A DNA stretch of 64,000 nucleotides, taken from Bilabrum cf. latius. Its lineage: Eukaryota. The DNA is taken from contig OZ237759.1 of NCBI GenBank assembly GCA_965178125.1, forward strand, positions 248,001 to 312,000. Direction: 5' to 3'. Under the pieces are notes generated by a model. It worked only from the letters and a program-made list of their open reading frames with translations, did no database searches and was not told the DNA's origin. The position numbers and the translations under genes were made by a program. Below, piece after piece: positions 13,669 through 64,000 of the stretch; position 1 is the stretch's first letter, and the number at the start of each line of letters is the position of its first letter.

Positions 13669-14185
13669 CCGAGAGGGAGATCCAATGCAACATAAAGAAG
13701 GATGAATCCGGCTTCCACTGGGCAGAGCAGCTGCGCAGTCACCGCCACAATGTGTCCCGCGACGCAAAGCAGCCCGCACGCCGCGATCCCTGCTCCCAGT
13801 GGGATGGACTGCCTCAGCCTCCTCTCCGTCCTGGCCAGTTCCCAGCCGGACCGCAGCACTTGCTCTCCTGCGACGGCAGACCCACTGCCAGTGCCATCGC
13901 TAGCGCCCACCTCATCTCTTTCGAGCAGTCCAGCCCAGGCCGCATCCATCGCTGGGTGCTGCAGCACGGCGGGCCCCGCCACCACCACGAGCACGCCGGG
14001 CAGTGCACCCAGCGCGATGGTGGCGGCCCCAATGCACAGCAAAGACGCAGGCAGCAGGCGAATGGAGCCCAGCCACCGTGGCAAGAAAGCCAGCCTAGTG
14101 ACACGCGAGCAGGGGTGCACGTACGCCTGCAGAGCCCGCCCAAGCAGCCCCCAGAGAGCCGCCAGGGCCGTCCACTTGGCCCTCT
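13669..14185 (-). pseudogene. Duplicated 3' fragment of the membrane-protein gene (shortened copy of segment R)
   Basis: Matches about 8730-9295 and the corresponding part of 18390-19490, with an internal deletion removing the native stop region. Confidence 0.8.
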
Positions 14186-14711
14186 ATGTAGTACTGCTGC
14201 CATATTGCTTATTGGGAGGGGGTGGGCGGTCGCCAGCACCCGTGATTGCGACCCCCTCATCAGGGCCGTCCACCGTGACCCCCCTTGCGGGGGTCTGGAC
14301 AGTGCGCCTGAGTGCATCACTTCTTGCTTTTGCCGATGAACAGGGAATTAATATCGCCATCAAGACGACTCACTCGCAGTCTTTATCGACGTGTACATAT
14401 CAGGCAGCTTGCCGGATCATTTACAGCCGTGATAAAGGCCAAAAGCAAGATTCCATGTGTGAGAGCCACTCAGTGCCATTGCTCGTTTGGTTCGTGCATG
14501 ATGCCTACGAAAGCAGCGGCAATTTGCTGCACGAATATGTAGTTGTATCTGCATTTTGCTACTCTGCTTGACACAGGGCGGTATTCAACGGACAGACTTG
14601 TCGCGAGGTTTTTGGGTACGGTCTGCGGTTCATCATTCTCGGATTGGCAAAGGGCTGCGAGTGGCAACGCCTCGAATGTACTAGTAGTGCATACCCATAC
14701 ATTGGCACGAT

Positions 14712-17700: not shown

Positions 17701-18143
17701 AACGTAGTCACGGCACTGACAGCAACACGGGTTCAGACATTGTAGACTCGAGCACCAATGAGCCTCTTCCATTGGGTGACCAAGGACGCGAAGAGTCGGG
17801 TACTGACGGTACCAACGACACGACGAACCTCTACTACCTCGACCACGAGGACTACAACGAGTTCCTATTCGCAGATGCGCGGCTGCTCTCCTCGAGGATC
17901 TGGGCCAACTCTGCGAGTGACCTCAAGGAGCGGTAGCTACGAGAGGAGAAGGTGGAGGATCTCGAAGGCGACCTTAGTGGCTTGTTGAATGACACCAATC
18001 GAAAGGTTGGGTTAGGCGAGCCTTCAAACATGGAGAAATGGACGGAGTAGTTCCCTATCAGCAGTAGGGGCCATCATGGCGACGCTGAGGGCGATTCGGA
18101 TATGGAGGATGCCCCCGAGGGAACGGAAACAGACAAGGAGTGA
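14712..18143 (+). CDS. P-loop NTPase/putative endonuclease protein, copy 2
   Basis: Near-identical to 9832-13242, with an in-frame 21-bp indel near 15171 and two additional TAGs where copy 1 has CAG. TGA at 18141-18143. Confidence 0.7.
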
Positions 18144-18389
18144 GGGGCACGTCGAGAATGTTGGTGGACACCATCTGGCACTGCGGCGGAGCGCTGCTGC
18201 GGTGGTATTGCCAGCCGCAGCCGGATGCAACGTGCGCGTAGTGGTTTGCTGTTTGTGCGCGGGTTGAACTTGGCTCAAGGGCCTGTGTCCGAGTCTACCT
18301 GTAAGTATCACGAATTCATGATTGTATCGGATCCAGGATAATTTTCTTGCGCGTAATTCCGACTCCGGATCCAGACGATGCAGGTTTCC

Positions 18390-18889
18390 AGTTTGCATCC
18401 AGTCCGGTCTGCTTGAGGTCCAGCTACCAAACCGCTCCAGTCGGCAAGCCGCTCGGCAGACGCGGATCCACGGAGGGAGTCCACTGTCCCGTTGCTTGAG
18501 ACAGGCCAGCGAGTTCTCCTGAGATCACAGCTGGTGATAGTGCATCAGCATTGCCCGCAAGGCTTGTGTCCGTTCGCACCACTACCGCCAATGAGGGTGA
18601 CAGGCCGGATGAAGCATTCGACAGGATAGCCGTGTCCTGCAGAAGGTACCGACCACCTGGAAACAGCCGAACGGCAGCTGGCATACAACCAGATGTCCTG
18701 AATGCAGAACTCCGATCCATTGCCTCTGACAAGGAGCTGCTGTGGCGTGCCAGGCCCCGTTGAGTTGCACTTCATGGCAGGCACAGTTGGAGCGACAACT
18801 ACCGAGCAATCGCCAGTGGTAGCACGAACACTTCGGCCAAAGACTAACAATGACCCAGTTACTACAGCAAGCTACTGCCACACGCGCAT
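18390..18889 (-). pseudogene. Truncated, frameshifted 5' fragment of the beta-helix gene (part of segment R copy 18390-19490)
   Basis: Matches 8195-8702, has a small deletion near 18730 that shifts the frame, and is cut off at the cassette end. Confidence 0.8.
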
Positions 18890-18964
18890 TAAAGCGATTT
18901 ATTGTGTGGCGGCTGCCCGAGAGGGAGATCCAATGCATCAAAAAGAACCGCAACACCGCGGCGA

Positions 18965-21607
18965 TCATGTCCCAGTGGTGGCTAGCTTTCGCCGTTGCTT
19001 CTTGAGGATGAATCCGGCTTCCACTGGGCAGAGCAGCTGCGCAGTCACCGCCACAATGTGTCCCGCGACGCAAAGCAACCCGCACGCCGCGATCCCCGCG
19101 CCCAGTGGGATGGACTGCCTCAGCCTCCTCTCCGTCCTGGCCAGCTCCCAGCCGGACCGCAGCACTTGCTCTCCTGCGACGGCAGACCCACTGCCAGTGC
19201 CATCGCTAGCGCCCACCTCATCTCTTTCGAGCAGTCCAGCCCAAGCCCCATCCATCGCTGGGTGCTGCAGCACGGCGGGCCCCGCCACCACCACGAGCAC
19301 GCCGGGCAGTGCACCCAGCGCGATGGTGGCGGCCCCAATGCACAGCAAAGACGCAGGCAGCAGGCGAATGGAGCCCAGCCACCGTGGCAAGAAAGCCAGC
19401 CTAGTGACACGCGAGCAGGGGTGCACGTACGCCTGCAGAGCCCGCCCAAGCAGCCCCCAGAGAGCCGCCAGGGCCATCCACTTGGCCCTCGAGGCAGCGG
19501 CCAGCAGCGGCAGGTGCCTCGCGATGGACTCGCTTGCTTCTTGCCACGCGGGCAAAAGACCCACCGACATGCGGGCGGCAAGAGCGTCCATCAGCGTGGT
19601 GTCTGTCCCGCTGCGGCTCTTGGCTAATGAGATGTCCTCGACTTGTTGATGCAGGCCCTCCGCTATACATTTCATCCTGTGTCGCCTCGCGGCAGCGCGC
19701 ACGTCGCTCGGCAGCATCACCCCCATGGCCAACAGTAGGTGCGAGGGCAAGCGGTGGGTCGGGATCCTGGGGCGTGACCCGTCCTCCATGGCTTGCTCAG
19801 AGGTCATGCTATCGCCATTCTCTTCCACGCTCCCATCGGGCCGCAGTTCTACCATGTTCAATGAGTCTTCTTCGAACTCGTCGCCAGCGCTGCCACCCTC
19901 CCACTCGCCCTCTTCGCTAGCAGTCTCCACATGCGGCACAGCACCTGCAGCACCCGCAGCACCTGCAGCAATAGACGCATAGTATCCCTGCCAGCTGCTG
20001 CCTCGGTCGGCCCTCTACCTCGCTTTCTGCCAGCACGACTCCATGGCCTGCACTGCCTCCCACACCACGATCGAGGTGGACTCCTCTGGCACGTAGCCCC
20101 TTCGCCCACCTCGACCACGCTCGGATTCACCACCCCGACCTTCTTCTGCTGTTTGATACCGCAAGGGAGGGTCTACGAAGGCCTCAAGGTCGGCTGTCTC
20201 AGCAACATTCACCCCTCTGTCTCCCAGCACAGCGGCGGTGGCAGCCACGGCCCGGGCCCCCTCCCAGTGCCTCCACCCCTGCCTTGCTGACACATCCAGA
20301 ATAGACCACTGCGTCGCTGTCTCCACCACGTCAGCGATGCCTGCAACGAAGGCTAGAAACACCAAGATGGAGACCCACGACCGGCTTCCAAGCTCGGGCC
20401 CGCAGCCGCACCGGACCGACGCGCTGCCGTCTGCCCCCGCATCCGCGCCGGCGATGCCCGTCCCCTCAGGCGATGCACCCAAGCCGCTGTTTTCATTGGG
20501 AGACAGGTCGCTGCAGCACTTGCAAAGGACTGCACCAAGTGCAGGAGGTAACTCAAAGCAGCGCTCTTTTCTCCGCCATGACGAATCGTCCCGAAGCCAC
20601 TCGCGGGCAGCGAACGTTCTGTACGGCAGCACCCGGCTGCTTGCCGCAGACGTTCTTGGGCTTGCGCTTGCGGGCGGCGTGCCATTGGAGGCAGCTCCTT
20701 CGTCTTTCGGCGAAGATTTCTCCTTGTCGCTGCCTGCATCATTTTCATCCCCATCGCCCAGCCCCACCGCGTCAGCATCGCCCACTGGCAGTTGTGGGCC
20801 ATCTTGCCGCTCGTCATCTCCAGACGAATCGGAGCTGCTGGCAGACCCAGAGCCTCGACTATGTTGCGTGGTTGCTCCACACTCTTTACTGCCACTGTTA
20901 CGACGCTTAACGTGATTTTGGACCTTCAATTCCCACCGGTGGGCCCACCCAACGTCGGCAGCGGCGTGGAGCTGCCCAAGCAGTGCTGCTGCCAGCACGT
21001 GCAGTGCCGTGTATGACGCGATTAAGATGAAGTCGGCAACTTGAGTCTACCTCGATGCAAGCCGAACGATGGCTGCTCGTGCTGTCGCATTCAAACCTGC
21101 AAACGCAGTCACATTGGATGGCGGCGGCTGGTACCACCTGCCTCCCGCTAGCTAGGGCTGCCGCACCCGCCGGCTCAAATCCGATTCAAGGGACAGCTGT
21201 GGCTTAAATGCAGGGTCAGATAGAATCTTAACGTAACGCTCACGCGTTGCATCTTGCAACGTTGCAGTCGTTGCTGATGCAGGCACCGCAATGCTGTCCT
21301 CTCCAATGGCTGCATACACGTCAACTTCAGACGTAGCAAGCTGAAGAGTGAGATCTGCAGGCGCCTGACGGGCCATTTCAAATGAGTTGGTTGCAGCCCC
21401 AGCCTATTGAATCCTGTAGGCTGCAAACACGAGAAGGCCGCAGCATATACTGCCGATCATTGCTATTTTTGAAATTCCTCTAAATCGATTTCCATACACA
21501 CCCATCTCAATAGCCGGATCCCAAAGCGGCTCAAGAAGAAGCTATTTCTTATTCGGACTGCTCATCGCGCTGTTGCGCTGGGGCCTGCCTGCCCTCGGAA
21601 GAGACAT
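18965..21607 (-). CDS. Hypothetical multi-pass membrane protein, about 880 aa
   Basis: ORFs 18965, 20015 and 21152 share one frame linked by TAG. ATG at 21607 (or 21565), several hydrophobic segments, TGA stop. Confidence 0.65.
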
Positions 21608-22328: not shown

Positions 22329-24683
22329 TCACGTGTCAGGCAGCTAGTGCAGCTTGCCCCGAGAGGCAGCATCGCCGAAGACTAGCTTGTAGAACGGCAG
22401 CCAGAGCTTCTAACCAGTCGACACTGATAGACCGGGCTATCGAAACCGGATCCTGACCTTGCCGCTCTTCCCGAATCCCCCCTCGATGGCCCCAGTGGCC
22501 ACAACGCCAGCCCCTTCACCGCGTGTCACCATGCTCGAGGCACCCCCCTCACTTGCGCCCCCAGCAGCAGCCACATCCCTGCTGCCCTCCTCCACAGCAC
22601 CTGCACCCTACTCGCCCTCGCCCCCCAGCAGCTGCACCTTGAGCCCGACAAACGGTGCCAGCTCCGTCCCTTTGCCGAAGAGCCCTCTCGCGATCACCAC
22701 GGTCGCACCCGACCGGCCGTCTCCGCCCTCTGCCACTCGATCCACTGCCCCATCCTTACCCTTCTTCCTGTAGAGGCGGACAGCTCCCAGGCTGCTCTTG
22801 CGATCCCCGGGGCCGGCAGCAGATCCACCACCGGTTGCAACCACTCCTCCCACGCCCCCCCCGCTCCATCCACCCGCCGCAGGTAACTCAGCCCTCACCG
22901 CCCCGTGGAAGGCCAGCCGGCACCCCGGAGCATGCGTGTCTCCATCCAGTCGACTTCCGATCACCGTGCTGCCCTCGGGGCACACAACGGGCGAGTCAAG
23001 CTCGAGGAGCGCCCACTGCCAGCGAGGGCTGTGCATGTGCATGGGAGCCTGAGAGGAGGGTCTTGAGGAGGGGGCTGTAGAGGGCGTTGCAGATGCAGCC
23101 GAGCCCTTGCCCTTGTCCTTGCCCTTGTCCTTGCCCTTGTCCTTGGGTCCAGTTTTTCCTCTGGATGCGCTTTTTCCCGTCTGTTTCCCTTCCTTCTGTT
23201 TGCCCCCCTGCTTCTTCTTCGTCCTCCCCCCGCTTAATGGCCCCATCAACTCGTCCTGCCACTCGAACAAGGCGCCCCAGTCATACACTAGCTCGGGCAC
23301 CTGCAGCCCATGCGATAGATCTGATGAACCCATAGCGCTGCCACCGACCCCATCCATGGAGCTGGCGGCGCCCTCGCCGAGATCCCTACCAGCACCACTT
23401 GAAGCAACATCCTCTGCCCCTTCACCCGCACCGGCCCCTTCGCCGTCTTCTAGAGCCACCGCGCTCGCCCTCTCTGCCGCAGCCAGCTCCCTGCTGCTTT
23501 CGTCCTGCCCCACCCCAGCCGCAGCCAGCTCCCCGGCACCGAAGAAAGTGGCCGTGCCCATCACCGTGGCATGCCCCACCGTCAGGTGAAACCGAGCCCC
23601 GCTCGAGCAGCTACCCTTGAAAAAGCGCACCCGCTGCACTAACGCCAGCAGCCGATCCGCCTGTCGCACCGAGCCTGGCGTTGCAACCACGGCCCGCTCC
23701 AGACCGGCGGGGTCCAGCCCGGCCACGCAGAGGCCCAGCCGATCCCCTGCCGCGGCGCCGCGCACGGGCTTGCGGAACATCTGCATGGACTTGACTTTTT
23801 TGGTTTGTTTCAGGTGCACCAACTCCACCTCATCTCCCACTGTGACCCTGCCCCTGAGCGCGGTGCCGGTCAGCACAGTCCCGTGCCCCTTGACGGCGAA
23901 GCAGTGGTCTGCTGCCATCAAAAAGGGGCCCGTGCGAGCACGGCGGGGTACTCGTATGCTAGACAAGAGAAGGGAAGACAGGGAAGATACATCTGCTAGG
24001 GGCGTTGGAGCTCCCATGTCGCCTGGGGAAGCAGCCTTGGCGGAGGCTGCTGCGGCATCAGCAGCAGCACCTGCCCCGCCTTTGCCAGCCCCGCCTGGTG
24101 CCGCAGACAGCGCGACGATCGGAGCTTCGGAAAATCGCGTGGACGACAGTATTTTCCGCACCTTTGCGCTCATCTTGGCTGTCTTCTCTTCCCGTTTGTC
24201 TTCCGGAAGAAGGTCCGTCTTGTTGAGGACGACTACCAGCTGCTCTGCTGTGATTTCGCCAATCACCAAGCACTCGGCGGTCTGCGTCTAGAATCCCTTG
24301 GTGACATCGACGACAAGAACAATCATATCGATGATCTAAGCGCCCCCTATGATTGTTCGAATCAAGCTTGCGTGCCCAGGACAGTCAACAAGGGTGAACT
24401 GCAACCGCGACGGAGGCCTCGACAGGCCCTCTGATGCTGCATACTCCACGGCCCCTGGCTTCAGACGCTCAGGAAGTTCTGTCAAGTATGATGAAAACCC
24501 CAAGTCAAGCGTGATTCCCCTTCGCTTGCTTTCAGGGTGCTTGTCTAGAGCTGCTGTTGAGAGGTGAGTGCTCAGAGCAGCAACTAGGCTTGTTTTGCCA
24601 GAATCGACGTGCCCCATCACACCGACATTCACATTAATTACATCACTTGCCTTCAATTCCTTCGCCTTGGCCGGATCGCCCAT
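22329..24683 (-). CDS. EEFSEC: Selenocysteine-specific translation elongation factor, about 784 aa with low-complexity insertions
   Basis: NVNVGVMGHVDSGKTSL, RGITLDLGFS, DCPGHASLIRTIIGGA(Q)IIDM, KGF(Q)TQTAECLVIGE, NKTD, DHCFAVKGHGTVLTGT, CRLAFHG and GGFGKSGK. TAGs at 24336 and 24288 occupy conserved Gln. TGA stop. Confidence 0.93.
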
Positions 24684-24853
24684 GGTGCTGACGGAACGAC
24701 CGAAGTGTGCAGACACGTCGCCCGGTGCCACCACACAGTGCAATGCCGCTCAGCTCTGCAGTGCCAATTGCTCCGAGTCTCGAGGTGTGGCACAAACCTG
24801 ACCGATCAGGCTTCAACCCGTCGCCATTTCTGCCCCGCCTGCCCGCCCATAAT

Positions 24854-47029: not shown

Positions 47030-50000
47030 TCATGACACTGAGCAAATCGACGAGCCCTTCGCCGCCAAGTCGTCCTGCGCTTTCTTCGCGTCCGCCTCGG
47101 CCTTCTCACGGGCCGTCTTCTCCTCTGCCAACTGCTTCTTGAGCGCCTCTAGCTCGCTCAGAGCGCCCTTGCCCGCGTCACCGGAGGCTTGCCGCAGCAC
47201 GTCTGCCTCCTGCTTGGCCCTGCTCGCCTCGTCCCTGAGCCGGTCCATCTCCTCCTTCTGCGCCGCCTCTATCTTGGCCTTCTCCGCCGCAATGGCAGTG
47301 CGCACCTGTTCGTCGCTGCCACCCGCGGCAGCACCCCCGGCAGCAGCGGCGCCTGCCCCTGCCCCGCTCCCCCCGGCTGCTCTCGCCTCCGCCAGCTCCC
47401 TCTCCAGCTCTTGCCTCCTCTGCGCCTCCCTCTGCAGCGCCTCATCCTTCTCCTGGATCTGCTTCTCCCTGGCCTCGATCTCCTGGGCGGCCGCCTGCTT
47501 CGCCTTGAGCTCGGCATCGATCGCCACCTGCGAGATGATAGACTGCCGGGCGGACTTGCCCGCCTTGGCCGTGCCGTCATCAGGGGTGCCCCACACCTGC
47601 AGCACCATGCTCTGAGTGCCCACGTACTCCAGGAACTCCTTGGTCACAACCACCGAGAAGGTCTTCCGGTGGTTGAAGTTAGGGTTCATGGCCTTGCCCT
47701 TGACCGGCACCGTCTGGTGCCACCTGTCGTCCAAGAAGAACTTGTACTTTACGTGCACGTCCACGCTTTGGTCCTTGGGCAGCGATCGGGCGCCCTCGAT
47801 GATGAGGGTGAAGTTCACCTTGCGGCCCTCCAGCTGCTCGAGCTGGTCCACGAACGTGGGCTCCCCGTCGTCCCCCTCAATCTCGATCCCGTCGTCCTCG
47901 TCCTCCCCCTCCGGGGGTTCTGGAGTCAGGTGCGGGATCAGCTTGAGCAGCAGCTTGCCCACCTCCTTGCCCTGATGGTTCAAGATGGCCACACTCTCCT
48001 GGATGGGCAGCGCGTGGACCAGCGAGTCCAGCAGCAGCCTCACCTTGCCCAGCTCCAGCGGGACCGCAACGATGTGGAACGGGTCCTCCTCGGGGTCGAT
48101 GAAACCGGTGCGACCCACGTCCCGGTCGGCCTCCAAGAACTCCTGGTAGAACTCCCGCATGATGTACAGCCGCTCCATGAACTCTTCGTGAGCCCACAGC
48201 GCGCGCAGAGGACCCTTCTTCTTGGGCTGCGCCAGCACGTACACCTCAGTGTCGAGCTCGGCGTCCTCCTGCTCCTTGCTCTCCTCGTCTTCATCTTCCT
48301 CGTCCTCATCCTCCTCATCGTCCTCCTCGCCGTCCTTGGACTCGTCAGCCCCAGCCCCGCTGGCCGGCCCCTGCTGCAGTCTCTTCCTGCCGCCTCTGTA
48401 GGTCGACTCGCCCCTCTGGTTCGCCATGAGCGTCACCTCAAGGGTGACTTCCTTGCCCACCTCCTCGGCGATGGCGTTGGCCTCGTTCACCAGGGGGATG
48501 GTGCGCAGCAGCTTCTCGTCCAGCAGTGTCCTCTCCCGCATCTCCTTCTGCTTCTTGGCGTGTAGCCTCTCCGTCTCCTGGATCTGCTCCTCGAGCTTCT
48601 TCTGCAGTTCCTCCTGCTGCTTCCTGGCCCTCGCCATGAGCTTCTCCTGCTCCTTCTGCATCTCCTGCATGGCCTTCTATTCGCCCGCCTCCTACATCTT
48701 CTTCATCTTCTCCTCGAGAGCAGCCGCGCGCTGCCTCTCCTCCTCCTCTGCCTTCGCCCTCTCCGCCTGCATCTTCTGCTCCAGCGCCTGCACCTTCTCC
48801 TCCGCCTCTTTGCGCATCCGCTCTGCCTCCGCGCGGCGTTCGGCCTCCTGCCTCTGCACGGCCTCCACCTGCGCCTTGTTGACCTCGTTGATCGCGAACT
48901 CGAACGTGATGTCAGTAGGCACGTCGTCCTCCACGGGGGCCGTACCGGCCGCGACCTCGGCGGGGATCTGCACGAGGAACACGTGGTTGTTGCCGAAGAT
49001 GACGCGGTTGCGGTGGTGCAGCTCCACGCCATCCATGCTGTCGATCTCCTTGCCGTTGACGAGGATCTTGGCGCCTTCCTCGCCCGGCTTGAGCGCGATG
49101 CGGCCCCCGGAGTTGATGACCACGGCATGCTTGGTCTTGATCGACAGACCGCCCAGCGTCACATCCATGGCCTCGTCGGCGTCGTCCCTCCCCACCCTCA
49201 GCTGCTTGCCCTCGTCGAAGAAGTGGAAGATCTACCGGTCCATCAGCTGGTCCTCATGCAGGTTGACGATGTTGGGCTCCACCTCCGCGCGCTTGCGGGC
49301 CGCCTCCAGGTCAGCCCCGGTGAGCACACCCAGCGACTTGAGCCGGTCGGTGGCCATCCTAGCGCGCGCGTCCGTGGCCAGCGCGTCCTGCTCCATCTCG
49401 GCCTTCATCTTGGCCTCCATCTCTTCCCTGAGCTTGCGCTCCATCTCCTCCCTGATCTTGGCCTCATCCACGCCGCCGCCGGCGGCCCCGGGCACCATCC
49501 CCGCGCCGCCTCCCCCAAGCTGTGCCTTGAGGGCCATGATCTGCTCCTTGAGCTCACGGATCATCCGCTCGTTCGGGTCCTCGTTCACAACGGCCTTGTT
49601 CTTGATCTTCTTGGCGCGATCAGCGTACCGCAGCGTGGACAGCGTCTCGTCGTAGTTGACGTCTGCTGGGCTCACGGCCGCGATCATGATGGTCTTGGAG
49701 TTGCCTCCCAGCGCGTTTTTGAGCAGCTGCGTGAGCACAGAGTCCCTGAAAGGCACCTTTTTCTTCTTTTTGTGGGCGGGGTCGCTGTTAAAAGCCAGCG
49801 TCTCGATGACCCGACCGAGCGAGGACAGCGACATGTTGATGGCGGAGCCCTCCTTGAGCCGGGCGCCAGAGGCCCCCGTGCCCTTCTGCCTCTCGCTCCC
49901 CGCGAGATCCACCAGGTTGATGACGCTCGTCTTGTCCGTGGCCTTACCCGCGGCTGCGTCTAGCTTGGTCTGCGTGAAGGTGATCTGGAATATAGTGTGG

Positions 50001-51047
50001 GCCCTGGAGGAGGTCTTGTTCATGTTGGTGGATGCCACCGTCCTGGCCTTGCTGCCCGCCTCCATGAGCCTCTCGATGGTCTCGAAGTCCCTGACGGCGT
50101 TCTTGGTCAGGTCCTTGACGAAGAAGCCGATCTTGGGGTCCAGGCGCACCTTGAGCTCCCCCGCGCCAGGGTTGAAGAGGTCCCTGATCTTCTCCATGTA
50201 GATCTCCAGCATGGCCGTCTCCACCTTGAAGGACATGCCCTCCTCGGTGTTGGCGGTGATGCGATCGAAGATCCTGGAGCATGCGATCGGGATGATGCCC
50301 TTGTCCGGCCCGTACCCCATCATCGAGTAGCTCTTCCCCGCGCCGGTCTACCCGTAGGCGAACAGAGAGCAATTGTAGCCGTCGAACGCGTTATTCAGCA
50401 CCCCCACGCCAATGTCTTTCCAAACCGTGTCTTGCGAGGCGTACTTCGGGTCGTCTCGCGGCACGAAGCTGTCGTAACTATAATCGAAGGTAAACTTCTT
50501 CTCCTTCCCTGCGATGATAACTTGCACAAGAAATAGTTAGCCACGGTGAACACTTTAACATAGCCTGGCGCCAACTACTAGACGAATCAAGACGCGCACT
50601 TCGTCTTTTCCGCTGCTGTGTAATGGCCTCAAGACAAACTGGAACTGACGACCGACTAGCCTGCACTTATTGAGCTAGTATAGCTAATATGCACCGGAAA
50701 GCACCACTCGACCCCCGCGATACCACCTTCGCCTCTGCCGAGGGCCGCAGTTGAATCGACATATCGGTTTCTTCTTGGAGCAGCGAATCCTGGTTACGGT
50801 ACCGCATGCACAAACAAACATAGCATACACATAGATTGTTTCACACAATAAGAACCTAAACGTAAGGAAATCAGCGAGATAGCAAGGTCAAAATGGGGTA
50901 CACGTGCTAAAGCCTGCCCTCACCATCGGCTGGGTTGGTGATAATGGTGTCCTTGCCAGACATTGTAATACAGTTCTTCGCGCCCATGTCCTTTTCACGA
51001 CCATTGTAGGGTCGCACTCGCACTGCGACCTTGACGGCTTCCGCCAT
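47030..51047 (-). CDS. Kinesin-3 family motor (motor, FHA, C2-like and coiled-coil regions, C-terminal CaaX-like CSVS); intron 50509-50923
   Basis: [13 protein letters not shown](Q)[52 protein letters not shown] and FHA-like [10 protein letters not shown]. Confidence 0.93.
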
Positions 51048-55939: not shown

Positions 55940-58666
55940 TCACGTTTCCTCCACGATGAACAGCCCGCTGCCCCCGCTGCTGTCCACACCCGGCGCCCAT
56001 ACGTTGCCGTCGAGGCTGTAGATAGTCTGCGCATCGGAGCTGCCTCCTGCCCGCAGATCCACATACTTGACGTCACCGGACAGCGTGTTGTACCTCCACA
56101 GCTCTCGGTCGCTCTGCGAGTCGAAGTTTCCCGACAGGTACACGTTGGTGCCCAGCGCCACGGCATTCCCGCCCTGCGTGTCGTTGCTGGGGTCTAGCGT
56201 CACGAAGTAGTACTCGCTCGAGGTGACGTTGAACACGTGCAGGCCAGAGTCAGACCCGATGCTGCCGGCGACAGCGTACATGTCTCCGGCTCCAGCAGCC
56301 TCCGCATCGAACGATGTGCTGCCCGCCCCTGCCGTGGCGTCCACTACCATGGTCGCGCTGGGACTGCCCCCTGAGAGGTCAAGAGCGTGCAGCTCCACTC
56401 CGCTGCTGGCCGAGCTCTCCGCGGAAAAGTAGAGGGCACCGTTGACCACGGCCAGGCGAGCAGGGTTGCTGCTGCCGGCCCCGGCCTTGATGTCCACGAC
56501 GAGCGTTGCAGACGATGCGTCCGCCCTGAATAGCTCCCTCCCGTTGGCGCTGTCCGTGGCTGAGAAGTACACGTAGTCTCCGAAGGGAGTGAGGTTCTGC
56601 GGGTCCGAGCTCGTGGATCCGGGGAAGATGTCCGTGATGAGTGTGTACGTGCTTCGGCTGTTCTTGTTCCACACGTACGGCTCGAAGCCCAGGTTTGATG
56701 AGCTGGCGTCGGCGATGAGGATGACATTGGAACCGTCCAGACCAACGGCCTCGCGAATCAAGCCAAAATCGAACTTAGTCACGGACGGGAACGATCCAGA
56801 AATAGAGTAGGCAAACGTGCTGGTGGATCCAATGCTAATTACGAAGTAGAGGGTGTCGCCCAAGTCGACGAGCCCGAACGGGTCCGCGTTATCTGGCGAA
56901 CCGCTGACGATGTTGCTCTTGAGCCGAGTGGAGCTGCCATCCAGCTGCACGGTGCACAGCTCCTGTCCATACGAGCTAAGCGAGCTCCCAAACGCCAATC
57001 CCTTGTGCAGCACAAGGTTCTTGAAGTTGCTGAAGGACCCCCTTGTGACCTCCGTGATAGCCACGAGCGGAGGCGTGGATGGCGTGACAGATGGTGTAGG
57101 CGAAGTACTGGGAGTCGTAGACGGTGTCGGCGAGGTGCTGGGAGTTGTAGATGGTGTTGGCGAGTTGCTGGGAGTCGTAGATGGTGTTGGGCTGTTGCTG
57201 GGGCTGCTGCTGGGGCTGCTGGATACACTCGGCGTGGGCGAGGTGCTGGGGCTGCTGGATACACTCGGCGTGGGCGAGGTGCTGGGGCTGCTGGATACAC
57301 TCGGCGTGGGCGAGGTGCTGGGGCTGCTGGATACACTCGGCGTAGGCGAGGTGCTGGGGCTGCTGGATACACTCGGCGTAGGCGAGGTGCTGGGGCTGCT
57401 GGATACACTCGGCGTAGGCGAAGTGCTGGGGCTGCTGGATACACTCGGCGTAGGCGAGGTGCTGGGGCTGCTGGATACGCTCGGCGTAGGCGAGGTGCTG
57501 GGGCTGCTGGATACGCTCGGCGTAGGCGAGTTGCTGGGGCTGCTGGATACACTCGGCGTGGGCGAGTTGCTGGGGCTGCTGGATACACTCGGCGTGGGCG
57601 AAGTGCTGGGGCTGCTGGATACACTCGGCGTGGGCGAGTTGCTGGGGCTGCTGGATACACTCGGCGTGGGCGAGGTGCTGGGGCTGCTGGATACACTCGG
57701 CGTGGGCGAAGTGCTGGGGCTGCTGGATACACTCGGCGTGGGCGAGGTGCTGGGGCTGCTGGATACACTCGGCGTAGGTGAAGTGCTGGGGCTGCTGGAT
57801 ACACTCGGCGTAGGTGAAGTGCTGGGGCTGCTGGATACACTCGGCGTAGGTGAAGTGCTGGGGCTGCTGGACACACTCGGCAATGGAGACGCGAAAACAG
57901 AGCCGCCTGCGCTCGCGGCCGCATCCAGCACGCCCACGCGTATAGGCGTGTCTTGGTCCACGTCAACTACAATTTCCTGATCCGGCTCGATGATTCGAAG
58001 CGCGATTTGGATGGACCCAGAGGCAGAGTCCAAGGATTCCGCCACGTCCATTGCCCCCTCGGTACCGTCCTCGTCGAGCACCATCACGAGGATACGGACG
58101 GCTCGCCCTCGCCCTCGCCGACGCTGCTGCTGCAGACCGCGCCTGAGTCCACCCGAGGGTGCAGCCGCGGCAGTGTCGTTGGATTCGGTCACATCCACGC
58201 TGTCGACGAGGACAGTGCTGGGGTCCACCGCAAGCTAGGCTGCCACGGCGGCCGAGACATTGCGCAGCTGCTCGCAGGATGGGCGGCTGGAGAGGCCATC
58301 GACAGCAAATGCAGCTCTGGCGTAACTGGAGAACTGTGTTGCGTCGATTGGTCCAAAGGGCGGGCATACGATGCCTTCCGAAGCGACGACTGAATCCAGG
58401 TCCTTAGAGATCTGCTGCGACTGGTCGGCCGTCGCGATGGTCGCACCGCTGGTGGCTTCGTCGTCGGAGTCCTGCCCCAGAGAAGCGCCAAGAAACGCCA
58501 CGAGAGCCGCTAGAACCACAATGATCAATATGACCGGTACTAGCGTGAGTCCGCAGCACCTGGTGTTGCAGCCTTGACGGGTCCCACGCAGCTTGCTCGA
58601 TGGTCCATACGCCTCTCTTGGACTGTCTGGGTCGACTCCAGAAGGGTTAAGAGCCTCTTTACTCAT
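55940..58666 (-). CDS. Type II membrane mucin-like protein with an S/P/T repeat stalk and C-terminal ELWxxDGT-type beta-propeller repeats
   Basis: ORFs 55940 and 58235 join through TAG. N-terminal transmembrane segment; motifs GQELCTVQLDG, GFEPYVW, DIFPGSTSSDP, YFSATDSANGRELF and RELWRY. Confidence 0.8.
57209..57880 (-). repeat. Coding tandem repeat, 36-bp unit, about 18 copies (PSVSSSPSTSPT)
   Basis: Repeated gctggggctgctggatacactcggcgt.ggcga.gt units. Confidence 0.95.
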
Positions 58667-58761
58667 GGAGTTTGGTGCCAGCATACTAGATGGTCTTGTT
58701 GAATAAGCTGCGTAACCGCGGAAACAAGCGATGCCCACCTCGCTACACATGACAGGTGGAC

Positions 58762-58819
58762 CTCTCGCAGTCCATGTGAAACCCCCTGTATACAGGGGGT
58801 TTCACATGGACTGCGAGAG
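58762..58819. repeat. Perfect 58-bp palindrome at the host/virophage junction
   Basis: ctctcgcagtccatgtgaaaccccctgta|tacagggggtttcacatggactgcgagag, with no loop and no mismatch. Confidence 0.97.
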
Positions 58820-59104
58820 TAGAATATCGGGGATTTTACTTTTAATTAAAAGGGTTACTTTCCATAAAACGTACAAGAGTCTAAATTTCTGACTGGGTTA
58901 TTCTGTACGTGATAATTCGGGAGGGAGATGGTCCGGGAGTGAGTGTTGCTGGTCACGAACAGATTCTCCCATGTTCCAGTGGATTCCCCGTGATTCCCCA
59001 TGGTTCCCCTGATTTCCCGAATGGATATAATTTACTTCTCTGGGGGTTTCACGCTGGGTGCGGGGAGGCACGTGCACGGCGCGTGATGCAAGACCTCTGC
59101 CAGT

Positions 59105-59670
59105 CCTCTGCACATCCCACTACCACACACGCCCAGTGGATACCCACCTACCATCACTCACTGTTCTATTCCGTTCCTACAAAATGCCAGTACTCGGTCA
59201 CATACAGAAAATCAGTTGGTTTCATACAGAAATGCATTTTTCCGCTTTTCCTTTATAAAGTAATTCTGGTAAAATGCATTTCCAAATAATTTGTGTTCCT
59301 TTCCGTTCCAAAGCAAGTAACGAGAATCGTCTTTGAACAAAATCGTTCAGCCTTACTTTTTTTCTACTGGCATTCTCGCCCCAAACCCTTAAACCTCTGC
59401 ACACACCACTACCACACACGCCCAGTGGATACTCATTTACCCTTACTTACTGTTCCTTTCTGTACCTCAAAAATGCCAGTACTCGGTCACATACAGAAAA
59501 TCAGTTGGTTTCGTACAGAAATGCATTTTTCCGCTTTTCCTTTATAAAGTAATTCTGGTAAAATGCATTTCCAAATAATTTGTGTTCCTTTCCGTTCCAA
59601 AGCAAGTAACGAGAATCGTCTTTGAACAAAATAGTTCAGCCTTACTTTTTTTCTACTGGCATTTTCGCCC
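59105..59670. repeat. Two direct copies of a ~277-bp unit (period 289 bp) in the non-coding terminal region of the virophage
   Basis: 59105-59381 matches 59394-59670 (for example gcccagtgga at 59131 and 59420). Confidence 0.93.
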
Positions 59671-59811
59671 TTACTCCTTGTCTACTTTCCAAGAACTATT
59701 CTAATGAATAGTACCGTTCATTCTTACAGTTCTAAAAGTTGTCTGGTTCATCAATAGGATTTTCATATTGATATTCTAGTTCAATATAATTATCCTCAAT
59801 CCTTAATTTTC

Positions 59812-59815
59812 TCTA
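59812..59815 (+). promoter_or_regulatory. TCTA late-promoter-like motif 11 nt upstream of the protease ATG
   Basis: ttaattttcTCTAcctaagattatATG; position and AT-rich context match the CroV/mavirus late motif. Confidence 0.5.
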
Positions 59816-59826
59816 CCTAAGATTAT

Positions 59827-60348
59827 ATGGATCAAACCCTAAACCCCACACAACTAACTCATCTTGCCAATCGTTTCAGCATACCCAATTTCAATTGGAT
59901 ACAATACAAAGATATCTTACATCATGGTTTACCCCAAGGCGATTTCGTACTTTTTTACCCTCAAGAACAATCCGGCAACACCATCAGCGGTCACTACACC
60001 TGTGTTATTCAAACTCCCAATGTTATCTATTTCTACGATCCTTATGGCGAACTTCCTGATACACACAAAGTAAACCTTTCTGGTGCACAAAAACAAATCC
60101 TATACGATCGCAAACTCAACCACCAAAACCTCACCAAGTTACTCTGGCAAACTGGTAAGTTAGTTGATTATTCACACTACCCACACCAACAATACTCCGA
60201 TGATATCGCAACATGTGGTCGACACTGCGTCTTACGCCTTGCCAATCGCTAGATGAGCAATGATCAATACCACAAGTACCTCAAATACCTTAGCAAACTA
60301 AACAATCAACCCAATCTAGATAAACTAGTGTTTCAAATAACTCAGTAA
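59827..60348 (+). CDS. Virophage maturation cysteine protease (adenain/Ulp1-like), 173 aa
   Basis: SGHYTC (His), YFYDPYG (Asp) and HQQ...ATCGRHCVLR (Gln, Cys). One TAG at 60250, TAA stop. Confidence 0.9.
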
Positions 60349-60371
60349 TTATTATCACTGGTAGTAATTAT

Positions 60372-61283
60372 ATGGCAAAAAGTCACGTAATTGATTACCA
60401 ATACGTAAACCTATAGTAGTTCAACCAAGGCAAAACCGATCTTGAAACCAATCTTGAACAAACACGACAATCAACCTTCCTCAAACCCAACAAAGGATAC
60501 CTGTTTGGCATTGTTAGATGGTTTATTAGCAACGGTGTTGCCTTACCTGTTTTCCAAGCACCACTCAATCCACTTTCAATTAGTGTTGAACCCAATTCTG
60601 GCACTGCCGAAATAATTGATCTTACCTTTTCCGAGGATCTGTACTACAACATGCAGGATCTCGTCGCCGAACTCAATGCCTCAATCAAAGTTGCATGTGA
60701 TAATCTATCTATTGGTACAGGTGATCAACCATCAGTTAGTTTCGACGGCAAACTATTTTCCATCAACTCCAATACCGCCTTTCGTTCCGCCAATCGTCTT
60801 GGATTCAACCCCAGATTAACCCGAATGTTACACACTTTTCGTTTTGAATCAGGCAGCGGCAATCCATCCGATAGTTGGAACTGGCTACTACTAGAAAATG
60901 ATCTCGAAACACAATTCACCGATTCACTCGAAAATATCGATCCTGTTGCCCGTATCCTTATCAAAGCACGGGGTTTACCCATTAATCAAGAACTAACACC
61001 TTTACCACTCAACTCACAAGGCAAAATCTCCGATAAAAGCGAAAGTATTGTTACCGATTTTAAAGTGGTTATGACCAACGGATCTCCTTATAGATCTTTC
61101 TTATATAATGCTAGTAGCACTCCACGATGGACTCAAATGCTGGATGTATCTGGTAGTACTAAAAACTTAACCTTTGAATTATACTGGTTAGATTATAGAG
61201 GTGTTGAAACAAGAATAAGTTTACCCAGCGAATCAGCCGGCGATATCAAAGGTTTGTTTAAGGAAATTAGCGAATTCACTTGA
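60372..61283 (+). CDS. Virophage minor capsid protein (penton), 303 aa
   Basis: YVNL(Q)(Q)FN...EQTRQSTFL.P...Y.FGIVRW.I....LPVF N-terminal pattern and C-terminal ELYWLDYRG...I.LP...IK.LF. Lies between protease and MCP. Tandem TAGTAG at 60414-60419. Confidence 0.8.
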
Positions 61284-61291
61284 TTTTTTTT

Positions 61292-61295
61292 TCTA
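61292..61295 (+). promoter_or_regulatory. TCTA late-promoter-like motif 13 nt upstream of the MCP ATG
   Basis: ttttttttTCTAcaacctagttataATG. Confidence 0.55.
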
Positions 61296-61308
61296 CAACC
61301 TAGTTATA

Positions 61309-63030
61309 ATGAGTGAAATTAACTCTAATCTCCCTTTAGAAATTGGAATCAGCAAAAGCTACCAATTTACCGCCCCCTCTCAACTTAAGTACCAAAGTCA
61401 AGCCGATGCACGTAATGCCGTTTATGAGGATCACCCATCAACCAAACCACTTTCAAACACTGGTTGGAGCTACCGTTGGCAGTTTGATCCTGCTGATGGA
61501 TTGCTTGGTATTCCCGATATGGAATTCTAGAACCTTAGTTTCTTACTAACTCTCAATGGTGGTGGCAATCTTGTCCCCGATGACCTTAAAAACAACCTTG
61601 GTATCGCCACCTTCGGCGAATCATCAGTTGTTGAGAGAATCGATTTCAATCAAGCAGGACAAAATATCCAAACCGAGCCATCCAAAATGCGATACATCTG
61701 GGCTGGTATGAACTCCATTGAAGTCAACTCCCTTATCACCAATGGTCCTGAACCTGATACCAGTTCAAAATATGTACCTCTGGCACAAAGCAATGTGCTT
61801 CGGGATGGTTTTAACTCCACCTCAAACACCAACACTCGCGGTTTAGGCTTACGGTACAATGCCACTCTAGAGGCTGTAGATGCCGCCACCGTTAGATTTA
61901 CTATTCCTAGTTTAATTTGCCGTCTACCCTCCGATGCTTTTGATTTCAAATCAGAGTACCCAAAACCATGCAATAGCATGGATCAATGGAGTCTTGAACT
62001 AAAACTTAATAACGTTGCCGCCAGCCTTGTTCGTTCTGGTCTTGACGACTTAAGAGTTGCATTAGAAGGAGGAACTGTAAATATGCGTCTACACACTAAG
62101 AACGCTGCACTCCAAGTTCCTCTCAGCACCAATTACGCCTACCCATGGGAAAAAACAATTCCTCATGAATTTGTGGGTAATACTGCTTTACTTGCTAATA
62201 GCGAAACCGTTGTCAACATTCCCATCATCAGAGAAGACGTTGTTCCCGATATGTTTGTTCCTCATGTTGTGGTCAATCGTGGTGCTGATGATTATGGTCC
62301 TGATATAACTCTACCTATTACTCACATAAGTTGCACCGTCGGCAATAAATTCAAACTTCTTGATGATCACAGCACTCGCGATCTTTACGATTTAGCCGTT
62401 TCAAATGGTTACGTTGGTAGTTATGCCTAGTTTGCTGGTTTACTACTCAACCCCGCTGAAAGTACCCTTGCCAATTAGGTACTCGCCAATTGGAGCATCT
62501 TACCTTTACGCCCCAGTTAGATGCCACTAGATGCCGAATTAATGAGTGGTGTCAAGAAAGAGTTTAGACTCACCAGCCTACAACTCACCATTGCCAACCG
62601 CACAGCCAATGCAATCGCAGCCGGCGATTACACCATCCAAATCCCTTTCATGTATGGCGGATACATTGAATTTAAAAATGGACGCATTCAAGCCAAAGAG
62701 GTTGTTATTCCAGTAGCCAAAACACTCACCAGCGCTCCTGTGGTCTATCTTGAGGATGACAGCGAACATGCTATTCAAGGCGGACGCGGTGGACGCGGTT
62801 GGAAGAAATTCAAGAACTTCGTCAAGAAAGCTACACCATTTGTCCAAAAAGCCAGCAAATTTGTACGCAACCTACCAGGTGTAAACAAGGTCGCTGGTGA
62901 TAGTACCGCTCTAGGACAGGTTATGGCTCTTGCGGGGGCTGGAACAACTCACGTTGGCGGTGGGGTTTAGATGGTTGGAGGTCAAGTGATGAGTTCAAGC
63001 TAGGCAGATGCAATGGGAGGTTCTTACTAA
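61309..63030 (+). CDS. Virophage major capsid protein (double jelly-roll), 573 aa
   Basis: One frame with six TAGs (61528, 62428, 62476, 62518, 62968, 63001) and a TAA stop. Size, position after the penton, PDMF..HV and RDLYDLAVSNGY motifs, and a diglycine followed by a basic amphipathic Gly-rich tail all fit virophage MCPs. Confidence 0.85.
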
Positions 63031-63075
63031 TCAATAAATTCATTCTAAATTATATATCTCACTATGTAATATAGA

Positions 63076-64000
63076 ATGTTTGCTGGAAAGCGAAAAAAAG
63101 CCCGTAATTTAAACGAAGTCAGATAGTTGCAACACCTAGTCAAAGCATCTGGTCAAGCCTATCAATCACCCAATGCCCGAACCACAATAATCTCCAAACA
63201 AGGAAAATATATGTACATCCCCAGTTTAAGCGATACCAAACGAGCCGTCTATCGTAACGATAAAAATCAATATATTGTTGCTTTTCGAGGAACAGTTGTC
63301 AGCGATCCTGAGGATCTATTAGACGATGCTCGAATCATTAAAAACACACTTCCTAATGGAAATAGATTTCAACGAGAGAAAAAAAAGGTTGAGGAAATCA
63401 AACAACTTAGCAATGGACAAGTTGTGCTTACTGGACACTCATTAGGAGGTGCTTTAGCCAATTAGATTGGATAGCAATTAGGAATCGAAAGTGTGGGTTG
63501 GAATGCTGGAACAGCCCCTACCGCTCGAAACTTAGTTGGCAACACCATTCGACGATTTGCCACCCAAGGCAAAACCAAAAGTTACAACGTTAGTAGCGAT
63601 CCTATTTCTCTTGGAAATCCTTTTAGCAAACGCATCAATCGCAAAGCTGGTCTAGATCCACACAGTCTTGGAAACTTTGTAATTCAAGGCGGTAAAGCAC
63701 AAACTGATCCCATTATTCGCAAATTCAACTTGTTTAACTTTGCTAAACCACTACTCAAAGTTGCCAATCTTTTAGAATTAGATAATACCTCCAAACAATC
63801 CGTGATTGAACTTAAAGGTTCGCAAACCAATCCCGTTATTTCCTTGTACGCTAGTGATTACGATTTCTTTCAACAACTAACACAAAAAGATATTCCAATG
63901 TTTGTACCACACTTAATCCATCTAGTAGAATTATTGAGTTCCAAAAGTTCTCCCCTTCGACCAGTGGAACTTAAACTAGGTGGCAAACACTACAAACCCA
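63076..64000 (+). CDS. Class-3 lipase-like alpha/beta hydrolase fused to a putative nucleotidyltransferase domain (partial, runs off the window)
   Basis: IVAFRGT, LTGHSLGG, DPIS and HSL (Ser-Asp-His triad), then LKGSQ-x8-ASDYDFF (hGS..DxD). Three in-frame TAGs. Confidence 0.75.

What the first reader, a model, noticed from the sequence alone, without database searches (positions are those of the whole stretch)
58762..64000. Endogenous virophage whose genes are written in the host's non-standard code (TAG=Gln)
Seen: the AT-rich insert carries protease, penton, MCP and lipase-fusion genes containing 12 in-frame TAGs (1, 2, 6, 3), with no in-frame TAA or TGA and no frameshifts. Reading through TAG gives full-length proteins (173, 303 and 573 aa) that end in TAA or TGA. 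Known: protease, penton and MCP belong to the virophage morphogenesis core; virophages are transcribed by a giant-virus helper and translated on host ribosomes; integrated mavirus can reactivate as anti-giant-virus defence in Cafeteria. Inference: this is an apparently intact virophage adapted to a stop-recoded host. That would confine it to TAG=Gln hosts, hide it from standard-code gene calling, and imply a helper giant virus that also tolerates or uses this code. I am not aware of a described recoded virophage but cannot verify novelty.
Basis: partly seen in the sequence, partly recalled or inferred. Interest (0 to 1): 0.95.

Follow-up and report, generated by a model that had tools for sequence, protein, structure and literature searches.

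The report
Integrated virophage using TAG=glutamine code
A small virus of the kind that parasitises giant viruses sits in the genome of a protist that reads the stop codon TAG as glutamine, and its capsid genes use that same rare code, so the giant virus it depends on probably has to cope with that code too.

Summary
From 58762 to the window end, a 41% GC block lies in a roughly 60% GC eukaryotic genome. It carries four same-strand genes in the virophage order: clan-CE protease, penton, double-jelly-roll capsid protein (MCP), and a lipase-like gene that runs off the end. Together they hold 12 in-frame TAG codons and no internal TAA or TGA.

TAG means glutamine:
- Five of the six MCP TAGs align to Gln in a relative that is 72% identical.
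- One TAG is CAG in other copies of the element.
- Standard-code gene callers cut two database relatives exactly at these TAGs.
- Host kinesin and eEFSec have TAG at invariant Gln positions.

TAA and TGA still end genes.

Contigs from public sequencing runs show related elements in at least three differently labelled organisms. Depth of the capsid genes is about ten times the host flank in one run and about equal in another. Most listed differences between copies are synonymous.

Not shown:
- the other end of the element
- a packaging ATPase or an integrase
- expression
- any helper giant virus

A perfect 58-nt palindrome at the junction stops short-read contigs from independently bridging host and element.

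The nearest precedent I found in print is integrated viruses of Streblomastix that use that host's TAA/TAG=Gln code. I call this a new variant of a known kind.

The parts
58762..58819 (.). Left terminus of the element: a perfect 58-nt palindrome (29+29 nt, no loop)
   Evidence: I2. It is unique in the window. A contig of run X1 matches from 58762 onward but has a different GC-rich flank before it. The X1 host-flank contig ends at the palindrome centre, 58790.
58820..59826 (.). Non-coding terminal region of about 1 kb. It includes a 286-nt tandem repeat (59105-59390 and 59394-59679, 93% identical). It may be a terminal repeat region, and it varies between copies.
   Evidence: D1. The region holds no ORF of 80 aa or more, and the ORFs of 40 aa or more that lie within it are 48, 40 and 67 aa. 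Several loose ends fall at 59168, 59389, 59493, 59690 and 59823 in runs X1 and X5.
59827..60348 (+). Clan-CE (Ulp1/adenain-like) cysteine protease, 173 aa. TAG at codon 142; ends in TAA.
   Evidence: 12 homologues. H56, D71, Q121 and C130 are invariant in 13 sequences. The AF2 model has pLDDT 71.3. The listed Foldseek hits are almost all clan-CE proteases. 185 IMG/VR contigs encode relatives.
60372..61283 (+). Penton (minor capsid) protein, 303 aa. Tandem TAG TAG at codons 15-16; ends in TGA.
   Evidence: PDB mavirus minor capsid protein 6g41, E 1.8e-22, residues 27-299. Sputnik 3j26_N, E 3.5e-4.
61309..63030 (+). Double-jelly-roll major capsid protein, 573 aa. TAG at codons 74, 374, 390, 404, 554 and 565; ends in TAA. 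The C-terminal tail has 5 GG|X motifs.
   Evidence: Pfam MCP_V20_C, 44.3 bits (cut-off 27). Mavirus MCP 6g45, E 1.4e-10, and Sputnik V20, E 5.7e-5. Alignment to P0001 and P0002. GG motif count.
63076..64000 (+). Lipase-like alpha/beta hydrolase gene (GHSLGG), with TAG at codons 17, 130 and 133. The frame is still open at the window end, so it is probably a longer multi-domain protein.
   Evidence: Weak Pfam matches: Lipase_3 at 1.9e-4, just under the cut-off. 38% identity over 94 aa to the N-terminus of the 732-aa P0086.
55940..58750 (-). Context only: a host Ser/Pro-repeat gene whose first ATG lies 11 nt from the element's end
   Evidence: The host flank stands at single-copy depth (54.9) in X1.

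Best explanation
This is the left 5.2 kb of a mavirus-type virophage integrated in the nuclear genome of a GC-rich, intron-poor protist. That protist reads TAG as glutamine and keeps TGA as a stop (TAA could not be tested in its own genes). In the element both TAA and TGA end genes. The element's virion-building genes (protease, penton, MCP) and a lipase-like gene are written in that same code. The virophage uses TAG for 12 of 75 Gln codons, so it can make capsids only on ribosomes that decode TAG as Gln.

The way it works is inferred by analogy with mavirus, not shown here. The provirus stays silent until a giant virus infects the cell, and the giant virus's transcription machinery then expresses the virophage genes. 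A TCTA motif lies upstream of 3 of 4 genes, which is a weak hint. Host ribosomes translate the transcripts and read TAG as Gln. MCP and penton assemble, and the clan-CE protease trims the GG-rich C-terminal tail of MCP.

Shown here: gene identities, gene order, the code, presence in several organisms, and mostly synonymous differences between copies. Inferred: integration by an integrase, inducibility, dependence on a helper virus, and any defensive role.
For: Virophage identity:
- MCP reaches Pfam MCP_V20_C (44.3 bits against a cut-off of 27). It also matches mavirus MCP (E 1.4e-10) and Sputnik V20 (E 5.7e-5) in the PDB.
- The penton matches the mavirus penton at E 1.8e-22.
- The protease has an invariant His/Asp/Gln/Cys set in 13 of 13 aligned sequences. 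The Foldseek hits to its model that I could place are clan-CE proteases.
- An IMG/VR virophage contig, L001, has the same order and strand: protease, then penton, then MCP.

TAG = Gln in the element:
- Five of six MCP TAG columns are Q in P0001 (72% identical). Three of the three covered by P0002 are Q.
- MCP codon 374 is CAG in the contigs of runs X1 and X7.
- P0002 and P0003 end exactly at the TAG positions.
- The penton has no ATG between codons 2 and 93, so its TAG-TAG at 15-16 must be read through (translation).

TAA is a stop:
- There is no internal TAA in 1,358 codons, although CAA outnumbers CAG 59 to 4.
- The MCP and protease C-termini coincide with those of homologues.

Host code:
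- TAG stands at the kinesin P-loop Gln (GQTGAGKS) and at two Gln positions conserved in human eEFSec.
- Reading TAG as sense raises the longest ORF from 764 to 1,979 aa.
- All 16 host ORFs examined end in TGA.
- TAG is 12.4% of host Gln codons and 16% of the element's.

Integration and activity:
- The window joins host and element.
- The X1 host-flank contig runs 29 nt into the palindrome, and a second, different flank abuts 58762.
- In X7 the host flank (about 90-93% identical, depth about 8-23) and a 14.6-kb virophage contig (about 94% identical, depth 11) have similar depth.
- Among the listed differences in X1, 19 codon changes are synonymous and 7 are not.
Against: - No short-read contig bridges the junction with 31 nt or more on both sides. 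The palindrome folds the assembly graph, so 'host, palindrome, element' cannot be told from 'host, palindrome, inverted host' plus 'element, palindrome, inverted element' with these data.
- In X1 the core genes stand at depth 522-642 against 54.9 for the host flank. That fits about ten integrated copies, but it fits free virophage DNA equally well.
- Only one end of the element is visible. No ATPase, integrase or polymerase, no second terminal repeat and no target-site duplication could be examined, because no genome is held.
- The terminal 1 kb has lower depth (122-160) than the core. Several alternative continuations exist, so it might be a separate repeat.
- Not all TAG columns support Gln. 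MCP TAG 554 aligns to Thr in P0001. The protease TAG aligns to D/S/P/A in relatives that are 30-44% identical. Two lipase TAGs align to S and K. The two penton TAGs and lipase TAG 17 have no aligned relative.
- The syn/nonsyn count rests on 32 of 345 differences, because the rest were not listed.
- No tRNA gene lies in the window.
- P0001, the closest full-length MCP relative, has no in-frame stop at all.
Confidence: 0.85

Rival explanations
1. Assembly chimera. The virophage is free (episomal or virion) DNA in the culture, and the assembler joined it to a host contig at the 58-nt palindrome. It would still be a TAG=Gln virophage of this host, but not endogenous.
For: Core depth is about ten times host depth in X1. 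Contigs break exactly at the palindrome centre. No independent contig bridges the junction.
Against: The X1 host-flank contig continues 29 nt into the palindrome. A second host-like flank abuts the same first base, 58762. In X7 the virophage contig and the host flank have similar depth (11 against about 8-23). Low-GC virophage islands in high-GC hosts are the documented state in Cafeteria (PMC8547959, passages).
Confidence: 0.1
2. Decaying pseudogenes. The TAGs are nonsense mutations in a dead insertion.
For: Under the standard code all four genes are interrupted.
Against: Only TAG occurs in frame (12, against 0 TAA and 0 TGA), and there are no frameshifts. The TAGs align to Gln and alternate with CAG. 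Host housekeeping genes carry TAG at invariant Gln positions. Listed differences between copies are 19 synonymous to 7 non-synonymous.
Confidence: 0.01
3. Virus-driven recoding, as in code-15 phages. The element or its helper virus reassigns TAG during infection, independently of the host.
For: Giant-virus genomes from metagenomes are reported to be best annotated with alternative codes, and a code15 category appears in a figure legend (PMC13524828, passages). Earlier notes of this scan describe soil giant viruses that read TAG as Gln (not tested here).
Against: Host genes across the whole 58.7 kb flank need TAG to be a sense codon. No suppressor tRNA lies in the visible part. TAG usage is similar in host and element.
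Confidence: 0.02
4. The element is a polinton-like virus or Maverick rather than a virophage, so it would not depend on a giant virus.
For: The replication and integration genes that would separate these groups are unseen. The MCP lineage is isolated: the best full-length representative is 28% identical.
Against: The only Pfam and PDB matches of MCP and penton are to Sputnik and mavirus proteins. The gene order equals that of virophage contig L001. The protease family is shared with 185 IMG/VR contigs, and the one examined, L001, is Sputnik-type.
Confidence: 0.07

Closest known systems
Endogenous mavirus-like elements (EMALEs) and integrated mavirus in Cafeteria burkhardae (Hackl et al. 2021, PMC8547959, passages read)
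   Same: Both are low-GC virophage islands in a high-GC protist genome and occur in many copies per genome. The penton and MCP here are closest to mavirus among solved structures. The gene order protease, penton, MCP matches that of virophage contig L001; that mavirus itself has this order is recalled, not checked here.
   Different: The genes here are written with TAG=Gln. The MCP is only distantly related (E 1.4e-10 to mavirus, and 28% identity to the nearest full-length representative). The visible end is a perfect 58-nt palindrome followed by a tandem repeat. The TIR pair, the 3-5 bp target duplication and the integrase that define full EMALEs could not be examined.
Integrated viruses of Streblomastix strix that use the host's TAA/TAG=Gln table (Bellas et al. 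2023, PMC10120064, passages read)
   Same: Both are integrated double-jelly-roll-capsid viruses whose genes follow the host's non-standard nuclear code.
   Different: Those capsid proteins belong to the paper's 'Metamonada group', which was seeded from Trichomonas, and both TAA and TAG are reassigned there. Here the capsid genes match virophage families, only TAG is reassigned, and TAA still ends genes.
Giant-virus metagenome genomes annotated with alternative codes (GVMAGs V2, PMC13524828, passages read)
   Same: Both concern stop-codon reassignment in the giant-virus world. The paper names a code15 category in a figure legend.
   Different: Those are giant viruses without known hosts. The paper states that all isolates come from standard-code hosts, and the word 'virophage' does not occur in it. 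Here a host is attached.
Code-15 (TAG=Gln) bacteriophages (crAss-like, Lak and others; seen only in search listings and one abstract, PMC9523058)
   Same: The same codon takes the same new meaning.
   Different: In those phages the code differs from that of the bacterial host and is thought to be phage-driven. Here the virus simply shares its eukaryotic host's code.

Membership tests
Virophage morphogenesis module | Virophage-type double-jelly-roll major capsid protein | tested here: met
   Pfam MCP_V20_C, 44.3 bits, cut-off 27. PDB mavirus MCP E 1.4e-10 and Sputnik V20 E 5.7e-5.
Virophage morphogenesis module | Penton (minor capsid) protein | tested here: met
   Mavirus 6g41, E 1.8e-22 over residues 27-299. 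Sputnik 3j26_N, E 3.5e-4.
Virophage morphogenesis module | Clan-CE cysteine protease with a His/Asp/Cys triad | tested here: met
   H56, D71, Q121 and C130 are invariant in 13 of 13 sequences. Fold matches go to Ulp1/SENP/NEDP1, poxvirus I7L and ASFV pS273R, with E 2e-4 to 1e-2 and TM only 0.3-0.45. There is no significant sequence match in Pfam or PDB.
Virophage morphogenesis module | FtsK/HerA-type packaging ATPase | not testable with these tools
   It is not in 58762-64000. The rest of the element lies beyond the window and no genome is held.
Virophage morphogenesis module | Gene order protease, penton, MCP on one strand | tested here: met
   Window compared with IMG/VR locus L001. 54 of 55 protease-bearing loci with enough sequence have a 480-aa or longer ORF downstream on the same strand.
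Virophage (biological definition) | Replication depends on a co-infecting giant virus | not testable with these tools
   The only hint is a TCTA motif within 45 nt upstream of 3 of 4 genes, P about 0.03. That this motif is a late promoter of mimivirus relatives is recalled, not checked.
Endogenous virophage (EMALE-like provirus) | Flanked by host DNA on both sides, with terminal inverted repeats and a target-site duplication | tested here: inconclusive
   Only the left junction is visible (58761/58762). It is supported by the window and by the X1 flank contig up to the palindrome centre, but it is not bridged.
Endogenous virophage (EMALE-like provirus) | Integrase (rve or tyrosine recombinase) | not testable with these tools
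   Beyond the window.
Nuclear code with TAG=Gln and TAA/TGA as stops (as NCBI table 15) | In-frame TAG at conserved Gln positions | tested here: met
   Host: kinesin P-loop and two eEFSec positions. Element: 5 of 6 MCP TAGs, plus a TAG/CAG alternation.
Nuclear code with TAG=Gln and TAA/TGA as stops (as NCBI table 15) | TAA and TGA still terminate | tested here: met
   Element: TAA ends the protease and MCP genes at the same columns as homologues, TGA ends the penton gene, and there is no internal TAA or TGA. Host: 16 of 16 ORFs end in TGA. TAA is unused as a stop in this sample, and the three TAA-bounded upstream extensions do not look coding. So the status of TAA in host genes themselves is not settled.
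Nuclear code with TAG=Gln and TAA/TGA as stops (as NCBI table 15) | A tRNA-Gln with anticodon CUA | tested here: inconclusive
   There are no tRNA genes in the 64 kb, and the genome is not available.
Polinton-like virus / Maverick | PLV- or polinton-type capsid, protein-primed polymerase, integrase | tested here: inconclusive
   The capsid genes match virophage families only. The replication genes are unseen.

The most novel reading that the evidence does not exclude
A complete host, giant virus and virophage system runs on the TAG=Gln code. On this reading the virophage lineage is active: it is multi-copy, under purifying selection, and shared at 94-99.8% identity among several related protists. 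It is locked to TAG=Gln hosts. This host lineage would then be a natural host of the TAG-recoded giant viruses so far known only from metagenomes, with the provirophage acting as an inducible defence against them. A bolder side reading is that the perfect terminal palindrome marks an end structure or integration route different from the TIR-plus-integrase route of mavirus.
Probability: 0.4. Interest if true: 0.85.

Novelty: new variant of a known kind. Interest (0 to 1): 0.72.

Why it matters
Virophages are translated by the host but transcribed by a giant virus. A virophage that needs TAG=Gln therefore points to a giant virus that infects a recoded eukaryote. According to the 2026 giant-virus catalogue (PMC13524828, passages), every isolated giant virus so far comes from a standard-code host. 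The recoded giant-virus genomes known from metagenomes have no host, and this element supplies a candidate host lineage and a testable system.

It also shows in practice that standard-code gene calling cuts such viruses into pieces, since two database proteins end at these TAGs. Surveys of virophages and integrated viruses therefore probably undercount them in recoded protists. Finally, a code that reassigns TAG alone is rare among eukaryotes, and a virus lineage confined to it is a natural test of whether code changes act as barriers to viruses.

Tried and rejected
- No whole genome is held for this window, so the rest of the element could not be read.
- Close MCP relatives were sought in IMG/VR and in JGI metagenomes, and none was found. 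The INPHARED phage collection has no match to MCP or penton. The 58-nt palindrome has no exact match in IMG/VR.
- The single-sequence fold of the protease was useless (pLDDT 37.8). The fold made with a 12-sequence alignment was used instead.
- The protease profile against PDB sequences gave only E 0.21 to SdeA DUB. Pfam gave nothing significant for the protease family.
- The distant MCP alignment (A4, 15 sequences, 19-25% identity apart from the 72%-identical P0001) is too divergent to read the TAG columns. It was also too divergent to seed a locus search.
- A first attempt to detect recoding in the 80 IMG/VR loci by summed ORF length was confounded by overlapping frames and was dropped. The downstream-long-ORF test replaced it.
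- No RNA holder was listed among the sequencing runs.
- Parts without cover in the laid runs carry no weight. These are the host flank in X5 and the core genes in X8, whose contigs cover 58100-58698 and 58834-59223 at 100% identity.
- There are no tRNA genes and no Rfam matches in the window. The sigma-70 and terminator scan is irrelevant for a eukaryotic virus and was below shuffle expectation.
- No notes of this scan exist for this genome or for this MCP sequence.
- Literature searches for a recoded virophage found only the Streblomastix case. Supplements were not seen, so tables of integrated viruses in those papers could hold further cases.

Full report
**What is there.** The window is about 60% GC up to roughly 58.8 kb and 39-46% GC from 59 kb to its end. 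In the AT-richer block, four ORFs on the + strand are open only if TAG is read as a sense codon:
- 59827-60348 (173 aa, 1 TAG, ends TAA)
- 60372-61283 (303 aa, 2 TAG, ends TGA)
- 61309-63030 (573 aa, 6 TAG, ends TAA)
- 63076 to the window end (308 aa seen, 3 TAG, still open)

The coding frames hold 12 TAG and no internal TAA or TGA in 1,358 codons. The other two frames hold 26 and 26 TAG, 27 and 33 TAA, and 9 and 43 TGA.

**What the genes are.**
- MCP. The 573-aa protein passes Pfam's threshold for the C-terminal domain of the Sputnik V20 capsid protein (44.3 bits, cut-off 27). By sequence alone it matches the solved mavirus capsid protein (E 1.4e-10) and Sputnik V20 (E 5.7e-5).
- Penton. The 303-aa protein matches the mavirus penton (E 1.8e-22 over residues 27-299) and the Sputnik penton (E 3.5e-4).
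- Protease. The 173-aa protein has no significant Pfam or PDB sequence match. It does have 12 database homologues, and His56, Asp71, Gln121 and Cys130 are invariant in all 13 aligned sequences. A model built with 12 sequences (pLDDT 71.3) finds clan-CE proteases in the listed Foldseek results: Ulp1/SENP, NEDP1, bacterial deubiquitinases, poxvirus I7L and ASFV pS273R. Scores are modest (E 2e-4 to 1e-2, TM 0.3-0.45). Relatives of this protease are encoded on 185 IMG/VR contigs.
- Gene order. On the contig I annotated, L001, the order is protease, Sputnik-type penton, Sputnik-type MCP, on one strand. That is the order seen here.
- Lipase-like gene. The fourth gene has a GHSLGG serine-hydrolase motif and sub-threshold lipase matches. 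Its N-terminus resembles that of a 732-aa protein (38% over 94 aa), so 'lipase fusion' is plausible but weakly supported.
- MCP tail. The MCP C-terminal 93 residues carry 5 GG|X motifs against 3 in the first 480. In mavirus the protease cuts the MCP tail at such motifs (PMC6048507, passages read).

**What TAG means.**
- The closest full-length MCP relative is P0001 (72% identical). It has Gln at five of the six TAG columns (74, 374, 390, 404, 565) and Thr at the sixth (554, in the low-complexity tail).
- P0002 (76% identical) has Gln at the three columns it covers and then ends exactly where the window has TAG 404.
- P0003, a 99%-identical protease, is 141 aa long, so it was cut at TAG codon 142.
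- In the contigs of two public runs, MCP codon 374 reads CAG instead of TAG.
- The penton has no methionine between residues 2 and 93, and its conserved part starts at residue 27. Its tandem TAGs at codons 15-16 must therefore be read through.
- The remaining TAGs are uninformative. The protease TAG faces D/S/P/A in relatives that are 30-44% identical. Two lipase TAGs face S and K. Three TAGs have no aligned partner.
- TAA is not a sense codon. The element prefers A-ending Gln codons 59 to 4 yet has no internal TAA. Its TAA stops also coincide with the C-termini of homologues.

**The host uses the same code.**
- With TAG as sense, host ORFs reach 1,979, 1,531, 1,299, 1,213 and 1,204 aa. Under the standard code the longest is 764 aa.
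- Nine of the 16 long ORFs I picked have ordinary eukaryotic Pfam domains, including kinesin, eEFSec, sulfatase, arabinonolactone oxidase and a copper monooxygenase. Seven have none.
- TAG stands at the invariant Gln of the kinesin P-loop and at two Gln positions conserved in human eEFSec. A third aligned eEFSec TAG lies opposite Ile, in a stretch that is not significant on its own (E 0.97).
- All 16 ORFs end in TGA. TAG makes up 73 of 587 Gln codons (12.4%) in 14 of them (the two tandem paralogues are left out of this count), against 12 of 75 (16%) in the element.
- I found no sign that TAA is sense in host genes. Because no host gene in this sample ends in TAA, its role there is not directly shown.

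**Is it integrated, and is it alive?** The element begins at 58762 with a perfect 29+29-nt palindrome, 11 nt from the first ATG of a host gene on the other strand. About 1 kb without ORFs follows, holding a 286-nt tandem repeat. Contigs of four public runs were laid on 58100-64000.
- X1 (possibly the source sample). The host flank is at depth 54.9, and its contig ends at the palindrome centre. The next contig starts there at depth 122. The capsid genes stand at depth 522-642, in a variant with 47 differences over 3,444 nt. Another contig matches from 58762 on but has a different GC-rich flank.
- X5 (a differently labelled organism). A 6.3-kb contig carries 59823-64000 with 10 differences.
- X7 (a third label). 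The host flank is about 90-93% identical at depth about 8-23. A 14.6-kb contig is about 94% identical to the element at depth 11 and reaches about 10 kb beyond the window end.

So related elements occur in several related hosts, at about one copy in one and about ten in another. Of the differences that the tool listed (32 of 345), X1 shows 19 synonymous and 7 non-synonymous codon changes. That fits genes under selection.

The weak point is the junction. The palindrome folds the k-mer graph, so no independent contig bridges it. High depth in X1 would also fit free virophage DNA.

**How unusual is it?**
- The MCP lineage is isolated. There are 71 representatives at E of 1e-3 or better, and the best full-length one is 28% identical. 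No close relative appears in IMG/VR or JGI metagenomes.
- Among 80 IMG/VR loci with the protease, 55 have at least 3.3 kb of sequence downstream. Of these, 54 show an uninterrupted ORF of 480 aa or more there under the standard code. The environmental relatives are therefore not recoded.
- In the literature searched, the only link between virophage-like integrated viruses and a variant code is Bellas et al. 2023. They report that integrated viruses of Streblomastix strix use that host's TAA/TAG=Gln table (passages).
- The 2026 giant-virus catalogue reports metagenome genomes best annotated with alternative codes. It states that all isolates come from standard-code hosts, and it never mentions virophages (passages).
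- Two earlier notes of this scan describe soil giant viruses that read TAG as Gln. I did not test them.
- Supplementary files of these papers were not available to me.

**Verdict.** This is a mavirus-type virophage, most likely integrated, that shares its host's TAG=Gln code. The rest of the element, its mode of integration, its expression and the inferred recoded helper virus remain to be shown.

Noticed in passing
window 58762-58819: A perfect 58-nt palindrome sits exactly at the host-element boundary. It is unusual for a virophage end (mavirus-type elements are described with TIRs and short target duplications), and it is the reason short-read contigs break here.
   Followed up: partly
window 8549-19304: A tandem duplication of about 4.9 kb (copies 97-100% identical) carries two near-identical ORFs of 1,204 and 1,213 aa (9628-13242 and 14502-18143). 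They hold 9 and 13 in-frame TAGs and have no Pfam match, and GC is slightly lower (55-57%). This may be another repeated or mobile gene.
   Followed up: partly
window 22329-24749 (-): The host encodes a selenocysteine-specific elongation factor (eEFSec). TGA, the stop of all 16 host ORFs examined, is therefore probably also read as selenocysteine in some genes.
   Followed up: no
window 47030-50536 (-): The kinesin-3 ORF starts at the equivalent of KIF1A residue 47. The first roughly 45 residues are missing upstream, so there is probably an intron. The TAA-bounded extension does not look coding.
   Followed up: partly
window 56800-58000: A long array of 10-residue Ser/Pro repeats (SPSTSPTPSV and variants, about 30 units) lies in the host gene next to the insertion.
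   Followed up: no
window 58100-59223, run X8: One run of another labelled organism has contigs 100% identical to the host flank (58100-58698) and to the element's terminal region (58834-59223), but none was listed over the capsid genes. The terminal 1 kb could also occur as a separate or solo repeat. The tool warns that holes prove nothing.
   Followed up: no
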